Source of the DNA: Escherichia phage CAjan | Direction: 5' to 3' (one strand) | Sequence record: KP064094 | DNA: 59,670 bases | Part shown: positions 3,699 through 57,868 of the stretch, one piece after another | How positions within the stretch are numbered: position 1 is the stretch's first letter | Layout: each line of letters begins with the position of its first letter | Notes under the pieces: model-generated | Told to the model about the DNA's origin: nothing | The model's database searches: none | The model's input: the letters and a program-made list of their open reading frames with translations, nothing else | Made by a program: the position numbers and the translations under genes

Positions 3699-4571
3699 AT
3701 GAAAAAGAGTTCTGTAGCTATTAGTGTTGGTATGGCTTTAATTAATCCACGCGCTCGCGGTGAAGGTGATGTGGAACTGGAATACGAATATGCATCTGCG
3801 GAAGAGATCCCGGCAGAGTTTGCAACTCTTTACGCAGAGCAGGGCGGTAAATACGTTCTTGCAAAAGTTAAAGGTGTAGCCCCTGCTGATAGCGTTCGTC
3901 GTCTGGAAAGTGCGTTAGCTAAAGAACGTAACGACCATCGTCAGGTGAAGCAACAGATTAGCGCACTTGGGCGTCCGGTTGAAGAAGTCCTTGCGGACCT
4001 TGATCGTATCCCTCAACTGGAAGCTGCCGCTAACGGTAAAGGTACTCCGGAAGACATCGAAAAGATGGTTAAAGCCCGTCTTGCTCCGCTTGAGCGTCAA
4101 TTGCAAACTGTAGCAGCTGAACGCGATTCCGTTAAGCAGGAAATTGAAGGCTACCGCACTCGCGAAACTAAAGCGAAGATTAAAGACGCAGTTATTGCTG
4201 CTGCATCCGGTGCTAAGCTGCGTCCGTCTGCTATCGAAGATGCGGTGACTTATGCACAGTTGCAAATGACAGTCGACGAGAACGGCAATGTGGTTACGAA
4301 AGATGGGGCTGGTGTAACTCCATACCTAACCCCGGCGGATTGGCTTAACGAGATCCTCCCGAAACGTCCTCACTGGGTTGAAGGTTCTGCTGGTGGCGGT
4401 GCATCTGGTCCGGGTGCTGGCGGCCATCACGGTGAAGACCCATACAGTCACGACGGTTGGAACATCTCTAAGCAGATGAATCTCTGGAAAACTAATCAAT
4501 CTTTAGCTAAACGCTTAGCTGAAAAGAATGGCGTAGATCCGCTGAAGCCTGTACGTCCTGCTAAGAAATAA
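3699..4571 (+). CDS. putative scaffolding protein
   Basis: 290 aa, charged and coiled-coil-like (many E/K/R/A/Q) with Gly-rich segment; lies between portal and major capsid genes. Confidence 0.5.
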   Translation: MKKSSVAISVGMALINPRARGEGDVELEYEYASAEEIPAEFATLYAEQGGKYVLAKVKGVAPADSVRRLESALAKERNDHRQVKQQISALGRPVEEVLADLDRIPQLEAAANGKGTPEDIEKMVKARLAPLERQLQTVAAERDSVKQEIEGYRTRETKAKIKDAVIAAASGAKLRPSAIEDAVTYAQLQMTVDENGNVVTKDGAGVTPYLTPADWLNEILPKRPHWVEGSAGGGASGPGAGGHHGEDPYSHDGWNISKQMNLWKTNQSLAKRLAEKNGVDPLKPVRPAKK

Positions 4572-4572
4572 G

Positions 4573-4618
4573 TTGACATCCCGACGTCCCTGATGTTAAG
4601 TTTCAACACATCAGGGAC
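4573..4618 (+). promoter_or_regulatory. consensus -35 box plus perfect 11-bp inverted repeat upstream of major capsid gene
   Basis: TTGACA at 4573-4578; GTCCCTGATGT (4586-4596) and ACATCAGGGAC (4608-4618) form a perfect inverted repeat. Confidence 0.3.
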
Positions 4619-4693
4619 ACGGGTTCCTAAACAGCCTTCCACGGGGAAAGGCTACCAACAGTAAACAAATCAATCCTTTTCCTGGAGACAAGT

Positions 4694-18283: not shown

Positions 18284-18311
18284 TTAACCCCTCGTTTGAG
18301 GGGTTAATTTT
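18284..18311. terminator. bidirectional intrinsic terminator between J-like gene and lipoprotein gene
   Basis: TTAACCCCTC-GTTT-GAGGGGTTAA perfect 10-bp stem, T-run downstream and A-run upstream. Confidence 0.65.
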
Positions 18312-18544
18312 CAATAATCAATCACACAGTTTGAAGGTGAGCCAATTCGTCGGTATTCGTGATCAATTTCATGGCACCATTGCCCAGTCATTGGAAGCTT
18401 TTCGGTATCATAAATTAAAGAACCGTTACCATCGCGATCCAAAGGTTTTGGAATGACGCCGGAATTAGGTTTACCAGTATTTAAACCATTACCACATGCA
18501 GTAAGGGATAAACATAATGCCAGCATAATTAGAGCGTATTTCAT
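18311..18544 (-). CDS. small lipoprotein, candidate superinfection-exclusion (receptor-blocking) protein
   Basis: 77 aa with signal peptide and lipobox (LSLTACGNG); opposite strand to flanking tail genes, with own SD (AAGGAG), promoter-like element and terminator. Confidence 0.55.
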   Translation of the reverse strand: MKYALIMLALCLSLTACGNGLNTGKPNSGVIPKPLDRDGNGSLIYDTEKLPMTGQWCHEIDHEYRRIGSPSNCVIDY

Positions 18545-21726: not shown

Positions 21727-21753
21727 CAGCGCGTCTTCGGGCGCGCTTTTTAT
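21727..21753 (+). terminator. intrinsic terminator after tail fiber gene
   Basis: GCGCGTC-TTCG-GGCGCGC hairpin followed by TTTTTATT. Confidence 0.55.
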
Positions 21754-21881
21754 TGACTGTCAATCCTAATTTACAAAATCTTTACATTTGGATCATTGTA
21801 AAAAGCATGTTAAGGGGTATGCTTTACTTCGTAACCAGTTGGTTACATCCGCTTAACAAATCCATATATGGAGATTTTCCT

Positions 21882-22589
21882 ATGTCTGACATGACTCTTT
21901 TACCTACTAATCTCGGTGGCGACGGTTTCGGTGGTGAAGCTGGTGCGGCTGGTATCGGTGGCGCGATCGGTGGCTTAATTGGTTCCTGGATCGGTAATGG
22001 TTGGGGCGGCAATGGTGGTTGGGGTGGTCGCGGTAACTTCGCTGGCCCGGTGGAAGTGCAAGCTTCTGTTGACACCAACGCAATTCTGCAAGCTATCAAC
22101 AACGGTACTCTTCAGACCATTCAGGGGCAGAACGGTACTAACCTGACTGTTGAGCGCTCCGCTGCTTCTACCTATAACGGTATTACTCAGCAGAACACTC
22201 AGAACCTACTGGCTTCCGTTCAGGGCTTTGCTGGTCTGAACACGCAAATCCAGGGCGGCACCAGCCAAGTGCTCGCGGCTCTGTGTAACAACGAAGCAGC
22301 TAACATTACCCGCTCCTTCCAGGCTCAGTTAGAAGCTCAGAAGTGTTGCTGCGAAACCAACCTGAACATCGAGCGTCAAGCAGAAGCTACTCGTGCTCTC
22401 CTGCGCGATCAGCACGCACAGGCGCAAGCAGTTCTGATCTGTGACCTGAAATCTCAGTTGCAGGAAGCTCGCTTTGCAAACTCTCAGTTGGCACAAACGG
22501 CTGGTCTTACTTGTAAGATCAATCAGGTTGAGCAGTTAGTTAACTTTAAACTGCCAACTCCTCCGACTCCTCCGACTGGCTGCTGCTAA
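21882..22589 (+). CDS. Gly-rich / Gln-Asn-rich cysteine-containing protein of unknown function
   Basis: 235 aa from ATG 21882 with SD GGAG; N-terminal glycine-zipper-like stretch (GGDGFGGEAGAAGIGGAIGGLIGSWIGNGWGGNGGWGG), CCC and C-terminal PTPPTPPTGCC. Confidence 0.45.
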   Translation: MSDMTLLPTNLGGDGFGGEAGAAGIGGAIGGLIGSWIGNGWGGNGGWGGRGNFAGPVEVQASVDTNAILQAINNGTLQTIQGQNGTNLTVERSAASTYNGITQQNTQNLLASVQGFAGLNTQIQGGTSQVLAALCNNEAANITRSFQAQLEAQKCCCETNLNIERQAEATRALLRDQHAQAQAVLICDLKSQLQEARFANSQLAQTAGLTCKINQVEQLVNFKLPTPPTPPTGCC

Positions 22590-22660
22590 TCGTTGTAGTG
22601 TGGTTAAACTAAAGCGCCTTTCGCTCCTCCGCTTGGGGCGCTTTTAACAGAGGTAATATC

Positions 22661-23029
22661 ATGAGCCACATTAAAATTGCAACGATGGGAATGCCACGGG
22701 TCAAATTGCCTAAGGTTGCTTTACCTCGCATTAGCGTAGGCGAGCACCACCATGAACATGAGAAAGAGGAATATAAACATGCTCACTCTTATGCTCGAGA
22801 TCATGAACATATGGCAGCTATGTCAAATGTTCTTGACCGGATGGAAGAACCTCCGCATACGTGGGCGGCGTACCACGACAAGCCCGGCGGTATGATGTCC
22901 ATTGTTGAAATGGAATACCGCGAATTAATGGAGTGTAAGAAAGAAGGCGACCGCGCAGGGATCATGAAAGAGTTGACTGATCTTGCCGCAGCTTGTACTT
23001 GTGCTCTTCAAAAAATGAAAGATATGTAA
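22661..23029 (+). CDS. His-rich protein with MazG-like segment
   Basis: 122 aa; His-rich N-terminal half (EHHHEHEKEEYKHAHSYARDHEH); C-terminal EMEYRELMECKK...KELTDL resembles the ExxE...ExxD pattern of MazG-type NTP pyrophosphohydrolases. Confidence 0.35.
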   Translation: MSHIKIATMGMPRVKLPKVALPRISVGEHHHEHEKEEYKHAHSYARDHEHMAAMSNVLDRMEEPPHTWAAYHDKPGGMMSIVEMEYRELMECKKEGDRAGIMKELTDLAAACTCALQKMKDM

Positions 23030-23044
23030 GAATAGGAAGCCGAC

Positions 23045-23575
23045 ATGCAAAACGTAAACGCAGGAATGGGCGTAACCCAGTTCAACGGGATGAAACCGAA
23101 AAACTCCATCAACATGGGCGGTGTTGATTGGACGTTACGTCGGGACGCTACCGATTCAACTACCATGTTCCCACACCAGAAGGTGAGCTGGCTTAATGCA
23201 GGCTGTGAACCTATGGGTGATGGAAGGGTTCATTACTGTTGGATTATGGGAGTGATACCGCCTACGCCGGGCACTATCGAACGACCCGTGAATGTGATGT
23301 ATGTCGGCTTCCACCAGTTCAAGATTACAATTGCTCCAAACTCCATTAGTCAATCAGATCTTGATCGTATGCATGTTTACGTCAGCGATGGTACAGACTT
23401 CGCAGGGGATTTTATTAGTAAGTTTCTTGGTATGCAACCGGAGCAGCCTGTAGAAGCACGCGAGCATATTAGCCCGTGGCCACCCATGATTGATCAGGAA
23501 GTGCTGCAACCAAAGACCGCTCAAACGGTCCCTCAGAAACCGGAGCAGAAGGTGAAACCAAATGACGAAGAATGA
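23045..23575 (+). CDS. hypothetical protein
   Basis: 176-aa ORF with SD, coding-like composition. Confidence 0.45.
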   Translation: MQNVNAGMGVTQFNGMKPKNSINMGGVDWTLRRDATDSTTMFPHQKVSWLNAGCEPMGDGRVHYCWIMGVIPPTPGTIERPVNVMYVGFHQFKITIAPNSISQSDLDRMHVYVSDGTDFAGDFISKFLGMQPEQPVEAREHISPWPPMIDQEVLQPKTAQTVPQKPEQKVKPNDEE

Positions 23576-23846
23576 AGGTATTGATAAAGTCGTTGAAGGA
23601 CTTTCTATTCGTGCTCATGTTATAGCAGACGAAGGTCATGATCAACTTACAATTATGAAATCTGCATTCAGCGATTTTAAGTCTCTTGGAAACTTAAGCG
23701 GGTTAATGACTGTGGTTTCGACCGGAAAATTAACCCAGCAGCAAATCAGTCTAGCTCAGCGTATTGCTGTTAAAGTTATTGCGGTACTTGGGATGATTGA
23801 AGCTGAAAAACCCAGTTCCAAGCAGGATAACGAAAGCGACCTTTAA
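23562..23846 (+). CDS. hypothetical protein
   Basis: 94-aa ORF with good SD (GAAGGTGA). Confidence 0.4.
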   Translation: MTKNEGIDKVVEGLSIRAHVIADEGHDQLTIMKSAFSDFKSLGNLSGLMTVVSTGKLTQQQISLAQRIAVKVIAVLGMIEAEKPSSKQDNESDL

Positions 23847-23857
23847 GGAGGTCTACT

Positions 23858-24061
23858 ATGTGTGGTAATACTAACCGTTGCTGTCTAGGCAGTCCTGCAA
23901 CACAAGCAGGTATACTTCAGGGGCAATTGGCTCAAGCAGCGTGTAATTGCAAAACTTTTCAACCAGTAGCTCCAACTCCTGTGTTTGTGAATGCTTTTGC
24001 ACCGCCTGTTTTCAATACTTTTGGCGTATACCCATACGGTGCTTTCTTTCGTATATTCTAA
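23858..24061 (+). CDS. small Cys-rich protein
   Basis: 67 aa with strong SD (AAGGAGG), 5 Cys; followed by a bidirectional terminator. Confidence 0.35.
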   Translation: MCGNTNRCCLGSPATQAGILQGQLAQAACNCKTFQPVAPTPVFVNAFAPPVFNTFGVYPYGAFFRIF

Positions 24062-24067
24062 GAAGAG

Positions 24068-24094
24068 AAAAGGGGCAAACGCCCCTTTCTTTAA
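24068..24094. terminator. bidirectional terminator between convergent gene blocks
   Basis: AAAGGGGC-AAAC-GCCCCTTTCTTT at the junction of plus-strand late genes and minus-strand genes. Confidence 0.6.
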
Positions 24095-24372
24095 CGCTTA
24101 TGAAAAGCTGACAGGATTGCAAGTGTTACAGCACCCAATCCGACGACGGTAGCATAAGTGAGTTGGTGTTGAACTTTAACAAAGCCATAATAGGTGCTAG
24201 GGGTGTCTACAATCCCAAACGCCATAGCAAAGCTGGTCCCAAGCAGTGCTACAGCAAGGGCGCGTAATAACGCCCTGCTCATTGCTGTAAAGCCCTTCTC
24301 ATTACTATCTCCGGTCATTATAACAACAATGATTAGAAATAGCGAAACGACAACTAATAGATATTCCATCAT
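24091..24372 (-). CDS. small membrane protein
   Basis: 93 aa with about three hydrophobic helices. Confidence 0.45.
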   Translation of the reverse strand: MMEYLLVVVSLFLIIVVIMTGDSNEKGFTAMSRALLRALAVALLGTSFAMAFGIVDTPSTYYGFVKVQHQLTYATVVGLGAVTLAILSAFHKR

Positions 24373-56733: not shown

Positions 56734-57159
56734 ATGTCAGTAAATTTTGTCAAACAGCCAACTTTAAATACATGCGTTTCTGCGTGTTTGGCAATGATCC
56801 TTAATAAACCTGTTGAGAAGGTTATTGAGGAATTTCATAGTCGTTATTATAACAACTGGGAAATCACTATCAGCGAATATTTGACTAAAAACGGCGTCCA
56901 GCATCATTGTTCAGAAGGTGGTGGGCGTGAAACTTTGCATATGGGAGGTTTGTTCCTGTGCACGGTGCCAAGTCTTAATATTCCTGGCGCATTGCACCAG
57001 ATTGTGATTGATATGACGGATCACAAGTTTATTGTGCATGATCCAATTAAAGGATGGGAAGGTAAAAAGTTCTATGTTGGTCCGGATCAAGATCCTGAAG
57101 AGCCTGGAGCTTTTATCATTCATACTTGGGTCAAAGACGTTGAAATCCTGCCTTATTAA
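56734..57159 (+). CDS. papain-like cysteine peptidase domain protein (C39-like)
   Basis: 141 aa; N-terminal QPTLNTCVSACLAMIL matches the Q...C...ACLxMI pattern of C39-type peptidases, with downstream His (HQIVIDMTDHKFIVHD). Confidence 0.4.
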   Translation: MSVNFVKQPTLNTCVSACLAMILNKPVEKVIEEFHSRYYNNWEITISEYLTKNGVQHHCSEGGGRETLHMGGLFLCTVPSLNIPGALHQIVIDMTDHKFIVHDPIKGWEGKKFYVGPDQDPEEPGAFIIHTWVKDVEILPY

Positions 57160-57221: not shown

Positions 57222-57407
57222 ATGACCAAACTATACGCCGGATTGTTTTTATTTGCGACGTTGATGTTCGCTGGGCTTTATACCTATACAGTAGTCGAAC
57301 AACCTTCCACGGTTATCCGAATCTTTGCAAGTACAGGGCTTTGCATCTGTCTTATTCTATTTGTTTTATGCATTGTTATTATCCAAGACCAAAGGAAAGT
57401 TAAATGA
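57222..57407 (+). CDS. small membrane protein
   Basis: 61 aa with two hydrophobic helices; SD AGAGGGG lies within an inverted repeat. Confidence 0.4.
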   Translation: MTKLYAGLFLFATLMFAGLYTYTVVEQPSTVIRIFASTGLCICLILFVLCIVIIQDQRKVK

Positions 57408-57868
57408 CCACAATTGCGTTTGATGGAAAAGTATTAGCTGCGGACCGTGGAGTTATGCGCGGGGAAGCTGTGACTGCTTATAAGAAAGTTCATAGCGTGA
57501 ATGGACATCGTGGACGGTTTTTACTGGGCTTGTGCGGCCTTACAGCATTTACCGATCAGGTGTTGCGTTATTTTAATAGCGCGGAACCTGTTAAGTTCCC
57601 TGATATTAAACTTTACAGCAAAGATGATGATTACGGGCAAACTTGCGGTCTTGCTGTCACTCCGGAAGGTACTTGCCATTTTATTTATAATGATGGTACT
57701 TTGAGCGAGCCCATGCTGGATGGATGGGGATCTGAGGGTAGCGGTTGTGTGTTTGCTGCTGGGGCGTTAGCTGCTGGTGCAAGTGCGAGCGAAGCTATTG
57801 AGTTGGCAATTAAACACACCACATGCGCATTCCTGGGAGTTGATACAATATCATTTGAGGGTTTTTAA
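57404..57868 (+). CDS. HslV/proteasome beta-subunit-like Ntn hydrolase
   Basis: 154 aa starting MTTIAFDGK (Thr directly after Met, as in HslV MTTIVSV); GSEGSGCVFAAGALAAGASASEAIELA parallels HslV GSGGPYAQAAARALLEN. Confidence 0.5.
   Translation: MTTIAFDGKVLAADRGVMRGEAVTAYKKVHSVNGHRGRFLLGLCGLTAFTDQVLRYFNSAEPVKFPDIKLYSKDDDYGQTCGLAVTPEGTCHFIYNDGTLSEPMLDGWGSEGSGCVFAAGALAAGASASEAIELAIKHTTCAFLGVDTISFEGF

What the first reader, a model, noticed from the sequence alone, without database searches (positions are those of the whole stretch)
21882..22589. Glycine-zipper / Gln-Asn-rich protein with cysteine clusters downstream of the tail fiber
The N-terminal GxxxG-rich stretch (GGDGFGGEAGAAGIGGAIGGLIGSWIGNGWGGNGGWGG) resembles membrane-active glycine-rich microcins. 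The rest is Q/N/T-rich with a CCC triplet and a C-terminal PTPPTPPTGCC. I recognise no standard phage function; it may be a virion accessory protein or a moron with membrane or bacteriocin-like activity.
Basis: seen in the sequence. Interest (0 to 1): 0.5.

Follow-up and report, generated by a model that had tools for sequence, protein, structure and literature searches.

The report
Abundant glycine-zipper membrane protein, accessory phage cassette
This is a real, strongly conserved but dispensable gene of virulent enterobacterial phages; it probably makes a very abundant, membrane-anchored, cysteine-stapled helical protein of unknown function and heads a conserved cassette of unknown genes, and it does not look like a microcin.

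Summary
Window 21882-22589 (+) encodes a 235-aa protein with a Gly-rich GxxxG N-terminus, a CCC triplet and a C-terminal PTPPTPPTGCC. The window is a Seuratvirus (Queuovirinae) coliphage.

- **Real gene.** dN/dS is 0.03-0.17. It belongs to PHROG 9288 and 16490, both of unknown function. Pfam, NCBIfam, PADLOC and PDB give no hit.
- **Membrane anchor.** In remote homologues the glycine zipper is replaced by ordinary hydrophobic transmembrane helices, so the N-terminus is most likely a membrane anchor.
- **Rest of the protein.** It is predicted, at low confidence, as one long helix. CCC and C187 are invariant in the close family.
- **Expression.** It has the highest optimal-codon fraction in the window (0.77; capsid protein 0.74). 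It is bracketed by terminators and has a leader conserved across genera.
- **Cassette.** It is the first gene of X-A-B-C (plus D and E in some lineages), found in several phage lineages and at different genome positions.
- **Dispensable.** It is deleted, truncated, amber-mutated or pseudogenised in many isolates, and essentially absent from bacterial genomes.

The microcin reading is not supported: the protein is too large, there is no exporter, and the C39-like peptidase does not co-occur with it. Best guess, at low confidence: an abundant bitopic envelope protein acting on the infected cell envelope. A virion fibre and a cytoplasm-facing scaffold remain open.

The parts
21728..21752 (+). Intrinsic terminator closing the lateral tail fibre gene (stem 21728-21747 plus a T run)
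   Evidence: Terminator scan. RNA fold -14.1 kcal/mol, z = -3.0. Annotated as a terminator in the near-identical SA80RD genome.
21753..21881 (+). Conserved leader/regulatory region of X: TTTACAAAATCTTTACAT (21770-21787), candidate -35 TTGTAA (21796-21801), candidate -10 TATGCT (21818-21823), palindrome GTAAC-N6-GTTAC (21831-21846), TTAACAA (21853-21859), RBS GGAG (21870-21873)
   Evidence: The same order of elements is found upstream of X in KarlJaspers, polluks, eiAU-183, Sasha, JenP2 and FSL SP-126. The palindrome is unique in the window and the 18-mer has only one distant second match. The candidate promoter matches only 8 of 12 consensus positions and was not called by the consensus scan, so promoter function is inferred. 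The hairpin fold is -10.7 kcal/mol, z = -1.7.
21882..22589 (+). Gene X: 235-aa protein (stop codon included), PHROG 9288
21882..21938 (+). Acidic N-tail (aa 1-19, MSDMTLLPT...), with no Lys or Arg
   Evidence: The N-tail is net negative in 94% of 188 family members. M1, M4, L6 and P8 are invariant in the close family.
21939..21995 (+). Glycine-zipper segment (aa 20-38, AGAAGIGGAIGGLIGSWIG; G26/G30/G34/G38), inferred transmembrane anchor
   Evidence: Kyte-Doolittle maximum is only 1.27. However, the aligned segment in remote homologues is an ordinary hydrophobic helix, e.g. LIGILLIAALF, WLWIIVVFALLF, ILALIIVFILLF.
21996..22127 (+). Gly/Trp/Asn-rich linker and Q/N/T-rich region (aa 39-82), predicted disordered
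   Evidence: AF2 pLDDT is below 50 for residues 1-85.
22128..22547 (+). Predicted long helical domain (aa 83-222) containing the QGFAGLN motif, CCC (22344-22352) and C187 (22440-22442)
   Evidence: AF2 gives a single helix 83-222 at pLDDT 54-87. There is no clean heptad periodicity. The QGFxGLN unit is repeated 1-4 times at about 22-aa spacing in remote homologues. CCC and C187 are invariant in the close family.
22551..22586 (+). Pro/Thr-rich C-terminal tail ending in GCC (aa 224-235)
   Evidence: KLPTPPTPP is invariant or nearly so. The terminal GCC(GC) is lost in some members. Remote members end in T/P/A-rich tails.
22612..22645 (+). Terminator-like hairpin with a T run between X and A
   Evidence: Centroid fold. 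Annotated as a terminator at the same place in SA80RD and Sasha. It was not called by the simple scan.
22661..23029 (+). Gene A (122 aa, PHROG 9157), possibly an all-alpha NTP-pyrophosphatase-like protein
   Evidence: Syntenic with X. A profile of A gives a weak hit to PDB 2p06 (E = 0.007). Assigning that entry to the MazG-like superfamily is my own recollection.
23045..23575 (+). Gene B (176 aa, PHROG 8329), the most constant partner of X
23562..23846 (+). Gene C (94 aa, PHROG 7239)
   Evidence: Syntenic in most lineages.
23858..24061 (+). Gene D (67 aa, Cys-rich, PHROG 25697)
   Evidence: Syntenic in Seuratvirus and in the 9NA-like phages Sasha and 9NA. No profile similarity to X.
24091..24372 (-). 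Gene E (93 aa, small multi-pass membrane protein), convergent with the cassette
   Evidence: Homologues lie at the same relative position in 9NA, Sasha (annotated with 3 TMDs) and eiAU-183.

Best explanation
X is an accessory, very highly expressed, single-pass membrane protein made in the infected cell.

Proposed anatomy (inferred):
- The short acidic N-tail and the glycine-zipper helix (G26-G30-G34-G38) insert into the inner membrane and pack as a homo-oligomer.
- A flexible Gly/Trp/Asn linker leads to an elongated, mostly helical, Q/N/T-rich stalk. At about 140 residues it would span up to roughly 20 nm.
- Chains of the stalk are stapled together by the invariant CCC/C187 cysteines and the terminal GCC.
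- The protein ends in a Pro/Thr-rich tip.

I favour the orientation with the C-terminal domain outside the cytoplasm, because clustered cysteines and P/T-rich tails are typical of extracytoplasmic proteins. The proposed role is at the cell envelope: the protein would modify or shield the envelope of the infected cell, for example by excluding superinfecting phages, protecting progeny, or altering envelope integrity. It would not take part in core replication, assembly or canonical lysis.

The gene is transcribed as its own unit, and the terminator after it appears to let lower amounts of A, B and C be made by read-through. B and C are obligate-looking partners of unknown role.

Shown: the gene is real, conserved, dispensable, mobile and codon-optimised, and part of a cassette. 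Inferred: membrane insertion, topology, oligomerisation, disulfides and function.
For: - **Real and constrained.** dN/dS is 0.03-0.17. Twelve of the 13 differences from SeppeHuegi are synonymous.
- **Membrane anchor.** HMMER-significant remote homologues (E from 1e-12 to 1e-5 against 1.8 billion proteins) have ordinary hydrophobic TM helices aligned to the glycine zipper. G30 and G34 are invariant, and G26 and G38 nearly so.
- **Abundance.** The optimal-codon fraction is 0.77, the highest of the genes compared (MCP 0.74, major tail protein 0.66, holin 0.49, spanins 0.45-0.49, Llp-like lipoprotein 0.43, A/B/C 0.50-0.54).
- **Transcription unit.** It has a strong RBS and flanking hairpins, the same bracketing seen for the capsid gene, and a leader conserved across genera.
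- **Not core, not canonical lysis.** The window has its own endolysin, LydA-type holin, i-spanin and LysC/Rz1-type o-spanin. X is unrelated to the i-spanin (hhalign probability 0.8%).
- **Dispensable.** It is deleted or truncated in Seurat, KS_A3, KS_S4, KS_W4, GottfriedDienst, PLYYY01, CSP1C and others. SHIN8 carries an in-frame tail fibre-X fusion. Skure and SeppeHuegi carry an amber at codon 83.
- **Mobile and phage-restricted.** The cassette sits at different genome positions in different lineages, and only two weak hits were found in genomes of 185,579 species.
- **Shape.** AF2 gives a long helix 83-222, and QGFxGLN repeats vary in number among homologues, which suggests a stalk of variable length.
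Against: - No experiment or homology supports any particular function.
- Hydrophobicity of the window's own segment is marginal (1.27).
- Charge distribution gives no positive-inside signal for N-in/C-out. The N-tail is acidic and the only conserved basic residue follows the helix, which fits the opposite orientation, with the Cys-rich domain in the cytoplasm next to the signal-less A, B and C proteins.
- Known exclusion proteins are not expected to need capsid-level expression, and the phage's own Llp/Cor-like lipoprotein has a low optimal-codon fraction.
- The AF2 model has low confidence (pLDDT 58, pTM 0.23) and there is no heptad periodicity. The central Q/G/N repeats could instead form beta structure.
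- The candidate promoter is weak (8 of 12) and expression timing is unknown.
Confidence: 0.3

Rival explanations
1. X is a non-essential virion component present in many copies, such as a disulfide-stapled head or tail fibre or decoration, comparable in role to dispensable fibres and decoration proteins of other phages. In this reading B and C act as its assembly factors, and the N-terminal conserved motif plus Gly-rich segment is the attachment or membrane-penetrating end.
For: - Codon adaptation and terminator bracketing match the capsid and scaffold genes.
- The gene often sits at the end of the tail module and is co-deleted with the lateral tail fibre.
- An abundant gene followed by lower-expressed small partners resembles the fibre-plus-chaperone layout.
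- It has an elongated predicted shape and a variable repeat number.
- Clustered cysteines could oxidise after lysis.
- B gives a PHROG hit (E = 1.8e-7) to the C-terminal part of a tail-fibre family, which may be compositional.
Against: - Remote homologues have strongly hydrophobic N-terminal helices typical of membrane anchors.
- The cassette is outside the structural module in PY100 and follows terminase in Sasha.
- No solved virion structure contains a homologue. This is uninformative, because the closest solved capsid is SPP1.
Confidence: 0.2
2. X is anchored with its N-terminus outside and its large Cys-rich domain in the cytoplasm. There it forms a membrane-attached scaffold that works physically with the cytoplasmic A (NTP-pyrophosphatase-like), B and C proteins. 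The CCC/C187 cysteines would bind a metal or cluster rather than form disulfides.
For: - The N-tail is acidic and free of Lys/Arg in 94% of members, and a conserved Arg follows the helix. In my own knowledge this resembles N-out proteins such as the Pf3 coat protein.
- A, B and C have no signal peptides and are tightly syntenic with X.
- Exactly four cysteines are invariant in the close family.
- B has invariant His/Cys/Asp residues, as an enzyme or metal-binding protein would.
Against: - P/T-rich tails and terminal CC motifs are unusual for cytoplasmic domains.
- Three adjacent cysteines on one helix cannot chelate a single ion within a monomer.
- C187 and CCC are lost in some remote members.
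- The match of A to a pyrophosphatase fold is weak (E = 0.007), and B has no recognisable fold relatives.
Confidence: 0.17
3. X is a lysis-related accessory: a glycine-zipper pore former, a holin/antiholin-like timer, or a fusogenic, spanin-like protein that modulates envelope disruption.
For: - It has a single N-terminal TM segment with a large C-terminal domain bearing conserved cysteines, the general layout of T4-type holins and i-spanins (my own knowledge).
- Glycine zippers line small pores such as pinholins and VacA (my own knowledge).
- The N-terminus resembles a viral fusion peptide in composition. The profile hit to influenza HA2 has E = 0.81 and is not significant.
Against: - A complete canonical lysis cassette lies 36 kb away.
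- There is no similarity to the phage's i-spanin.
- No partner lipoprotein is embedded or adjacent.
- The lysis genes of this phage have a low optimal-codon fraction, unlike X.
- X-less phages are viable and lyse their hosts.
Confidence: 0.1
4. X is a bacteriocin- or microcin-like membrane-active toxin, made in bulk, released by phage lysis and acting on neighbouring cells. Its layout loosely recalls colicins: a Gly-rich N-terminus followed by a long helical region.
For: - The N-terminus is Gly-rich and GxxxG-rich.
- GG lies at residues 12-13 after a conserved short N-terminal motif.
- Predicted expression is very high, and release would not need an exporter.
- A C39-like peptidase ORF exists in the genome.
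Against: - The protein is 235 aa, far above microcin size.
- The 13-residue N-terminus does not fit the double-glycine leader consensus (my own knowledge of that consensus).
- No exporter is evident in the annotation of a near-identical genome, no immunity gene could be identified, and no cytotoxic domain was detected by Pfam.
- The C39-like ORF is sub-threshold (14.3 bits against a cut-off of 22) and its distribution does not follow X.
- No homology to any bacteriocin family in Pfam or NCBIfam.
- The family is essentially absent from bacterial genomes.
Confidence: 0.05

Closest known systems
Moron-encoded inner-membrane superinfection-exclusion proteins (HK97 gp15; also P22 SieA, T4 Imm)
   Same: An independently transcribed add-on gene in or beside the tail module, dispensable and spread by horizontal transfer, whose small protein inserts into the inner membrane (PMC3594210 for HK97 gp15 and the definition of a moron). 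X shares the flanking terminators, a GC content different from its neighbours (0.53 against 0.42-0.46), a patchy distribution and a predicted membrane anchor.
   Different: There is no sequence relationship. X occurs in virulent phages and is essentially absent from bacterial genomes, so it is not a prophage-expressed function. It is codon-optimised like a capsid protein. It has a large Cys-rich helical domain and comes with conserved partner genes. An exclusion phenotype has not been tested.
Two-component spanin inner-membrane subunit (Rz-type i-spanin)
   Same: N-terminal membrane anchor followed by an elongated helical domain with conserved cysteines. That Rz forms intermolecular disulfides is my own knowledge.
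   Different: The phage already has an i-spanin/o-spanin pair in its lysis cassette. There is no profile similarity, no partner lipoprotein, and X lies outside the lysis cassette. X is dispensable.
Transmembrane glycine-zipper motif (GxxxGxxxG) as in VacA, pinholin S21 and channel helices
   Same: A G26-G30-G34-G38 register conserved in the family. The motif is associated with tight homo-oligomeric helix packing in membranes (my own knowledge).
   Different: This is a motif, not a family. No channel activity has been shown. Remote homologues replace it with ordinary hydrophobic helices, which suggests anchoring rather than a specific pore.
Class II microcins / double-glycine-leader bacteriocins (ColV, MccE492)
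   Same: Gly-rich, GxxxG-rich hydrophobic sequence and a GG pair near the N-terminus.
   Different: About three times larger. It has no matching leader, no exporter or recognisable immunity gene and no homology, and the C39-like ORF does not co-occur with it.
Interchain cystine knots at the ends of trimeric fibres (the collagen III C-terminal GPCCG type)
   Same: A Pro-rich segment followed by adjacent cysteines at the very C-terminus, and a CCC triplet inside a predicted rod. Both are suited to covalent stapling of parallel chains (my own knowledge; a lead only).
   Different: There are no Gly-X-Y repeats. The oligomeric state and any disulfides have not been tested. The terminal GCC is not universal in the family.

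Membership tests
Class II microcin / double-glycine bacteriocin | Small precursor (under about 10 kDa mature peptide) | tested here: not met
   235 aa. Full-length homologues are 190-290 aa. The short hits are frameshifted or truncated remnants.
Class II microcin / double-glycine bacteriocin | Double-glycine leader of about 15-30 aa with conserved hydrophobic/acidic spacing | tested here: not met
   Only 9-13 residues precede the first GG. The sequence MSDMTLLPTNLGG lacks the consensus positions, as compared by eye with the consensus I recall, and the GG position varies in the family.
Class II microcin / double-glycine bacteriocin | Linked C39-peptidase ABC exporter and immunity gene | tested here: not met
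   No exporter is evident in the annotation of a near-identical genome. The stand-alone C39-like ORF 56734-57159 is sub-threshold (E = 0.037) and occurs in X-less phages such as Seurat and KS_A3, while it is not seen in X-bearing T1-like or 9NA-like phages.
Transmembrane glycine-zipper motif | (G/A/S)xxxGxxxG register in a membrane helix, conserved in homologues | tested here: met
   G26, G30, G34 and G38; G30 and G34 are invariant, G26 and G38 at least 90% conserved. Membrane location is inferred from homologues with hydrophobic helices.
Moron (independent transcription unit added to a phage genome) | Own terminator and promoter | tested here: inconclusive
   Terminators lie on both sides. 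The leader is conserved, but the candidate promoter TTGTAA-16-TATGCT matches only 8 of 12 positions and was not called by the scan.
Moron (independent transcription unit added to a phage genome) | Base composition differs from neighbours; patchy, horizontally transferred distribution | tested here: met
   GC is 0.53 against 0.447 for the window and 0.42 for the tail fibre gene, partly owing to Gly/Ala codons. The gene is present or absent within Seuratvirus. The leader plus 5' end is 85-92% identical in T5-like phages.
Moron (independent transcription unit added to a phage genome) | Expressed from a prophage to benefit the lysogen | tested here: not met
   The carriers are virulent phages, and only two weak hits were found in genomes of 185,579 species.
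Superinfection-exclusion inner-membrane proteins | Blocks entry of superinfecting phage DNA when expressed | not testable with these tools
   This needs plating assays with X expressed from a plasmid.
i-spanin (Rz family) | Sequence or profile similarity to Rz-type proteins, and a cognate o-spanin embedded or adjacent within a lysis cassette | tested here: not met
   hhalign probability against the phage's own i-spanin is 0.8%. The o-spanin (Pfam LysC/Rz1-like, E = 3.9e-12) and holin are at 58.7-59.65 kb. No lipobox ORF overlaps X.
   Pfam, PHROG function labels, NCBIfam and PDB profiles give nothing significant for X.
PHROG 9288 / 16490 (unknown function) | Full-length profile match | tested here: met
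   E = 1e-129 over residues 1-235. Of 26 diverse homologues, 24 match phrog_9288 and 13 match phrog_16490.

The most novel reading that the evidence does not exclude
X, together with B and C, may be the core of an undescribed accessory system of virulent enterobacterial phages. In this reading X is a bulk-produced, glycine-zipper-anchored rod stapled by disulfides. It would either span the periplasm as a barrier or a fusogenic/pore-forming device, or be released at lysis as a colicin-like membrane-active agent. B would be a new-fold enzyme or chaperone dedicated to it. In either form this would be a new kind of phage-encoded envelope effector unrelated to holins, spanins, Imm/Sie proteins or known bacteriocins.
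Probability: 0.12. Interest if true: 0.75.

Novelty: new variant of a known kind. Interest (0 to 1): 0.45.

Why it matters
The gene appears to be the most strongly expression-optimised gene of this phage, yet it is dispensable and has no assigned function. It heads a cassette conserved across Queuovirinae, Drexlerviridae, 9NA-like, eiAU-like, PY100-like and uncultured phages, several of which are used as model or therapeutic coliphages (the BASEL collection). Finding out what an abundant, membrane-anchored, cysteine-stapled protein does in these infections would fill a visible gap in phage accessory-gene biology and could bear on host range or phage-phage competition. Natural knock-out alleles already exist (the Q83 amber in Skure and SeppeHuegi, and deletions in Seurat, SHIN8 and KS_A3), so the question can be tested directly. 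If the gene turns out to be one more exclusion-type membrane protein, the result is useful but ordinary.

Tried and rejected
- **Family searches.** Pfam, NCBIfam, PADLOC and the PDB sequence/profile search gave nothing significant for X, A, B, C, D or E. The one exception is a weak hit of A to PDB 2p06.
- **Structure of X.** The AF2 model is one low-confidence helix and was not worth a fold search.
- **Coiled-coil periodicity.** There is no heptad signal. Peaks near 5.7, 3.3 and 2.2 residues could not be interpreted.
- **Double-glycine leader cut by the phage's C39-like peptidase.** Rejected on phyletic distribution.
- **Paralogue of the i-spanin or of the Cys-rich gene D.** Rejected by hhalign.
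- **Functional small N-terminal peptides.** The short homologues are frameshifted or deleted remnants.
- **Functional copy in T5-like phages.** The polluks copy has in-frame stops and Gostya9 keeps only a stub.
- **Prophage or bacterial homologues.** Essentially none.
- **Suppressor tRNA to explain the amber allele.** No tRNA gene is present in the window.
- **Literature.** The PY100 and 9NA virion-proteome papers and the CAjan paper are not held. The papers that could be read say nothing about this gene.
- **BASEL label.** The product name 'putative sugar-binding protein' given to the Hanrivervirus orthologue has no support in any search here.
- **L020-type gut contigs.** These carry a TM-CCC-CCC protein but were not relied on, because similarity is weak and the neighbourhood is different.
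Full report
**1.

The region is 98% identical to Seuratvirus (Queuovirinae) coliphages such as SeppeHuegi, slur01, Greed and SA80RD.

It has a Gly-rich N-terminus (20 Gly among residues 11-50), a CCC triplet at 155-157, eight cysteines in all, a Q/N/T/A-rich body and a C-terminal KLPTPPTPPTGCC. It follows the 1031-aa lateral tail fibre gene, which carries Pfam phage_tail_N and the Peptidase_S74 intramolecular chaperone domain.

ATG 21882 is the true start. GGAG lies 8 nt upstream, and orthologues in six other phage lineages (KarlJaspers, eiAU-183, Sasha, JenP2, P400, FSL SP-126) all start at MSDM. The Pro-rich antisense ORF 21824-22102 is simply the complement of the glycine codons.

**2. It is a real gene under strong constraint**

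- The word-indexed search found 169 homologues.
- An exhaustive HMMER search with a family profile found 124 cluster representatives, nearly all 190-290 aa.
- dN/dS against orthologues in SA80RD, JenP2 and Sasha is 0.03, 0.17 and 0.09.
- Twelve of the 13 nucleotide differences from SeppeHuegi are synonymous.
- In the close family the invariant positions include M1, M4, L6, P8, G30, G34, CCC155-157, C187 and most of KLPTPPTPP.
- The only family assignment is PHROG 9288 (E = 1e-129), together with PHROG 16490 for the more distant members. Both are of unknown function.
- Pfam, NCBIfam, PADLOC and PDB profiles give nothing significant.
- Source databases call every member 'hypothetical', apart from an unsupported BASEL label 'putative sugar-binding protein'.

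**3. Anatomy**

The window's own glycine segment (AGAAGIGGAIGGLIGSWIG; G26/G30/G34/G38) is only marginally hydrophobic, with a Kyte-Doolittle score of 1.27.

In remote but statistically secure homologues the aligned segment is an ordinary transmembrane helix. Examples are GGLIGILLIAALFGG, WLWIIVVFALLFGWG and ILALIIVFILLFG. I therefore read the N-terminus as a membrane anchor whose close-family version is a glycine zipper.

The N-tail is net acidic in 94% of 188 members, and a conserved Arg follows the helix. The usual charge rule therefore does not settle the orientation and, if anything, favours N-out.

AlphaFold2, run with a shallow alignment, gives disorder for residues 1-85 and one long helix for 83-222 at low confidence (pLDDT 58, pTM 0.23). 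I found no heptad periodicity.

Remote members repeat a QGFxGLNxxI unit one to four times at about 22-residue spacing. They end in T/P/A-rich tails, and some end in extra Cys motifs. This points to an elongated stalk of variable length.

The adjacent cysteines, CCC inside the rod and GCC at the very end after a Pro-rich segment, are what one would expect for covalent stapling of parallel chains. That is an inference from general knowledge and was not tested.

**4. Expression signals**

X has the highest fraction of E. coli optimal codons of the genes compared, 0.77, and 0.76 without the Gly-rich part. For comparison:

| Gene | Optimal-codon fraction |
|---|---|
| X | 0.77 |
| Major capsid protein | 0.74 |
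| Scaffold-position gene | 0.69 |
| Major tail protein | 0.66 |
| A, B, C | 0.50-0.54 |
| Holin | 0.49 |
| Spanins | 0.45-0.49 |
| Llp/Cor-like lipoprotein | 0.43 |

X is bracketed by hairpin terminators at 21728-21752 and about 22612-22645. The same bracketing is annotated in SA80RD and Sasha and is also seen around the capsid gene.

The 129-nt leader is conserved in order and partly in sequence upstream of X in Drexlerviridae, a T5-like phage, Eiauvirus, Sashavirus and Nonagvirus. Its elements are TTTACAAAA, a -10-like TATGCT, the palindrome GTAAC-N6-GTTAC, TTAACAA and the RBS.

The palindrome is unique in this window. Its half-sites are invariant while the spacer varies. That pattern fits a protein operator at least as well as an RNA hairpin, although a 5'-terminal stabilising stem-loop is also plausible (fold). 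The candidate promoter matches only 8 of 12 consensus positions and was not called by the scan. Promoter identity and timing therefore remain inferred.

**5. The gene heads a conserved cassette**

X is followed by three genes:
- A (22661-23029, 122 aa)
- B (23045-23575, 176 aa)
- C (23562-23846, 94 aa)

The same order, X-(A)-B-C, occurs in:
- KarlJaspers and FSL SP-126 (Drexlerviridae)
- JenP2 (Nonagvirus)
- Sasha (9NA-like)
- eiAU-183, P400 and PY100
- uncultured viral contigs of 40-174 kb, where X is only 28-37% identical to the window protein

A small Cys-rich gene D (23858-24061) and a convergent small membrane-protein gene E (24091-24372, -) are syntenic in Seuratvirus and 9NA-like phages.

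The cassette's position varies between lineages:
- after the lateral tail fibre in Seuratvirus, Nonagvirus, Drexlerviridae and Eiauvirus
- after the terminase region in Sasha
- divergent from head genes in P400
- between early operons in PY100

The tail-fibre neighbourhood is thus linkage in some lineages, not a defining feature.

**6. Dispensability and mobility**

Within Seuratvirus the cassette is often damaged:
- Seurat and CSP1C lack X, A and the 5' part of B.
- KS_A3 and KS_S4 lack the whole cassette.
- GottfriedDienst and PLYYY01 lack most of X.
- SHIN8 carries an in-frame fusion of tail fibre residues 1-133 to X residues 168-235.

Skure (Denmark) and SeppeHuegi (Switzerland) share a CAG-to-TAG change at codon 83. 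The downstream 152 codons are otherwise intact and identical in protein to the window. The window encodes no tRNA, so this allele is unexplained.

T5-like phages carry only decayed copies or N-terminal stubs. They share the tail-fibre 3' end, the leader and the X 5' end at 85-92% nucleotide identity, which indicates recent exchange together with tail-fibre modules.

A scan of one genome from each of 185,579 bacterial and archaeal species found only two weak matches. The family is thus confined to phages, apparently virulent ones.

**7. What it is not**

- **Not the phage's lysis machinery.** The endolysin, a LydA-type holin, an i-spanin and a LysC/Rz1-type o-spanin sit at 58.2-59.65 kb. X shows no profile similarity to the i-spanin.
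- **Not the receptor-blocking lipoprotein.** That candidate is the lipobox protein at 18311-18544 (-).
- **Not a microcin.** The protein is 235 aa, its N-terminus does not fit a double-glycine leader, and there is no exporter or recognisable immunity gene. I did notice a stand-alone C39-like peptidase ORF (56734-57159). Its Pfam match is sub-threshold (E = 0.037), although the Cys and His...DP motifs are visible by eye. Its distribution does not follow X: it is present in Seurat and KS_A3, which lack X, and in Ackermannviridae, Vibrio and Pseudomonas phages. It was not seen in T1-like or 9NA-like phages that have X.

**8. Most likely mechanism and rivals**

The combination of features points to a bulk-produced, bitopic protein acting at the envelope of the infected cell. 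Those features are a membrane anchor, capsid-level expression signals, clustered cysteines, a P/T-rich tail, dispensability, mobility and restriction to virulent phages.

I favour the orientation with the rod outside the cytoplasm, as a disulfide-stapled oligomer, with a role in exclusion, protection or envelope modification. My confidence is only about 0.3. Topology, oligomerisation and phenotype are all untested, and the very high predicted abundance is unusual for exclusion proteins.

The rivals, with my estimates, are:
- a non-essential multi-copy virion fibre or decoration, with B and C as assembly factors (0.2)
- a cytoplasm-facing membrane scaffold working with A, B and C (0.17)
- a lysis-related pore or fusion accessory (0.1)
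- a released bacteriocin-like agent (0.05)

**9. Comparison with known systems, and novelty**

Functionally the nearest described things are moron-encoded inner-membrane exclusion proteins such as HK97 gp15 (PMC3594210). By layout only, the nearest are i-spanins and single-TM holins. X is not a member of any of them; the membership table gives the individual tests.

It is an uncharacterised family (PHROG 9288/16490) with an unusual set of features and dedicated partners. I rate it as a new variant of a known kind (phage accessory envelope proteins), with a modest chance that it is something new. Interest is moderate. The gene is conspicuous and easy to test with existing natural mutants, but nothing yet shows a surprising mechanism.

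Noticed in passing
window 21753-21881: The leader upstream of X is conserved across Queuovirinae, Drexlerviridae, a T5-like phage, Eiauvirus and Sashavirus. It includes an invariant palindrome GTAAC-N6-GTTAC (21831-21846) with a variable spacer, just after a -10-like TATGCT. This could be an operator (it resembles a TGT-N12-ACA or TyrR-box-like dyad, from my own recollection) or a 5'-terminal stabilising hairpin.
   Followed up: partly
window 22661-24372: Genes A, B, C, D and the convergent membrane-protein gene E all lack an assigned function and travel with X. B (23045-23575) has invariant His/Cys/Asp residues and a confidently modelled fold with no structural relatives.
   Followed up: partly
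L001 20182-20889 (SeppeHuegi) and L101 291-998 (Skure); window codon 83 at 22128-22130: Two phages isolated in different countries share the same CAG-to-TAG amber at codon 83 of X, while the rest of the ORF stays intact and protein-identical. The annotators split the gene into two CDSs. No suppressor tRNA is encoded in the window.
   Followed up: partly
L005 3614-4222 (SHIN8): A natural in-frame deletion fuses the N-terminal 133 residues of the lateral tail fibre to residues 168-235 of X. It is annotated as a 'tail fiber protein'.
   Followed up: yes
L006 4794-5520 (polluks), L097 4091-4288 (Gostya9), L095 3105-3428 (FritzHoffmann): T5-like phages and a Nonagvirus carry pseudogenised or stub copies of X. 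The tail-fibre 3' end, the leader and the X 5' end are 85-92% identical in nucleotide sequence between Seuratvirus and T5-like phages, so the block moves together with lateral tail fibre modules.
   Followed up: partly
window 56734-57159 (+) and 57404-57868 (+): A stand-alone C39-like cysteine peptidase ORF (Pfam E = 0.037; Cys and His...DP motifs visible) and an Ntn/proteasome-like ORF (MTTIAF..., Pfam Proteasome E = 0.015) lie just upstream of the lysis cassette. The C39-like gene is widespread in Queuovirinae, Ackermannviridae, and Vibrio and Pseudomonas phages.
   Followed up: partly
window 18311-18544 (-): A small lipoprotein gene (lipobox LSLTAC) lies between the J-like tail tip gene and the lateral tail fibre gene. 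It is probably an Llp/Cor-type receptor-blocking exclusion protein.
   Followed up: no
window 4571-4693: The capsid gene has a good sigma-70-like promoter (TTGACA-17-TTAAGT) that overlaps a long inverted repeat (GTCCCTGATGT...ACATCAGGGAC), and terminators flank the gene. This is the same 'bracketed, own promoter' layout as X.
   Followed up: no
window 21824-22102 (-): A 92-aa Pro-rich antisense ORF mirrors the glycine codons of X. It is an artefact and should not be annotated.
   Followed up: yes
L020 5635-6324 and many similar loci (L019-L079): A large set of 25-46 kb viral contigs from one metagenome encode a distantly similar protein with a strong TM helix, two CCC motifs and a C-terminal GGCNCG. 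Its neighbourhood is different and includes a 156-aa ORF that looked to me like a BclA C-terminal-type domain, although Pfam found nothing for it. Homology to X is weak.
   Followed up: partly
L090 5959-6940 (phage 9NA): 9NA itself appears to have lost X and the 5' part of B (gp13 is a 116-aa fragment) while keeping C, D and E. Its relative Sasha keeps the full cassette.
   Followed up: partly
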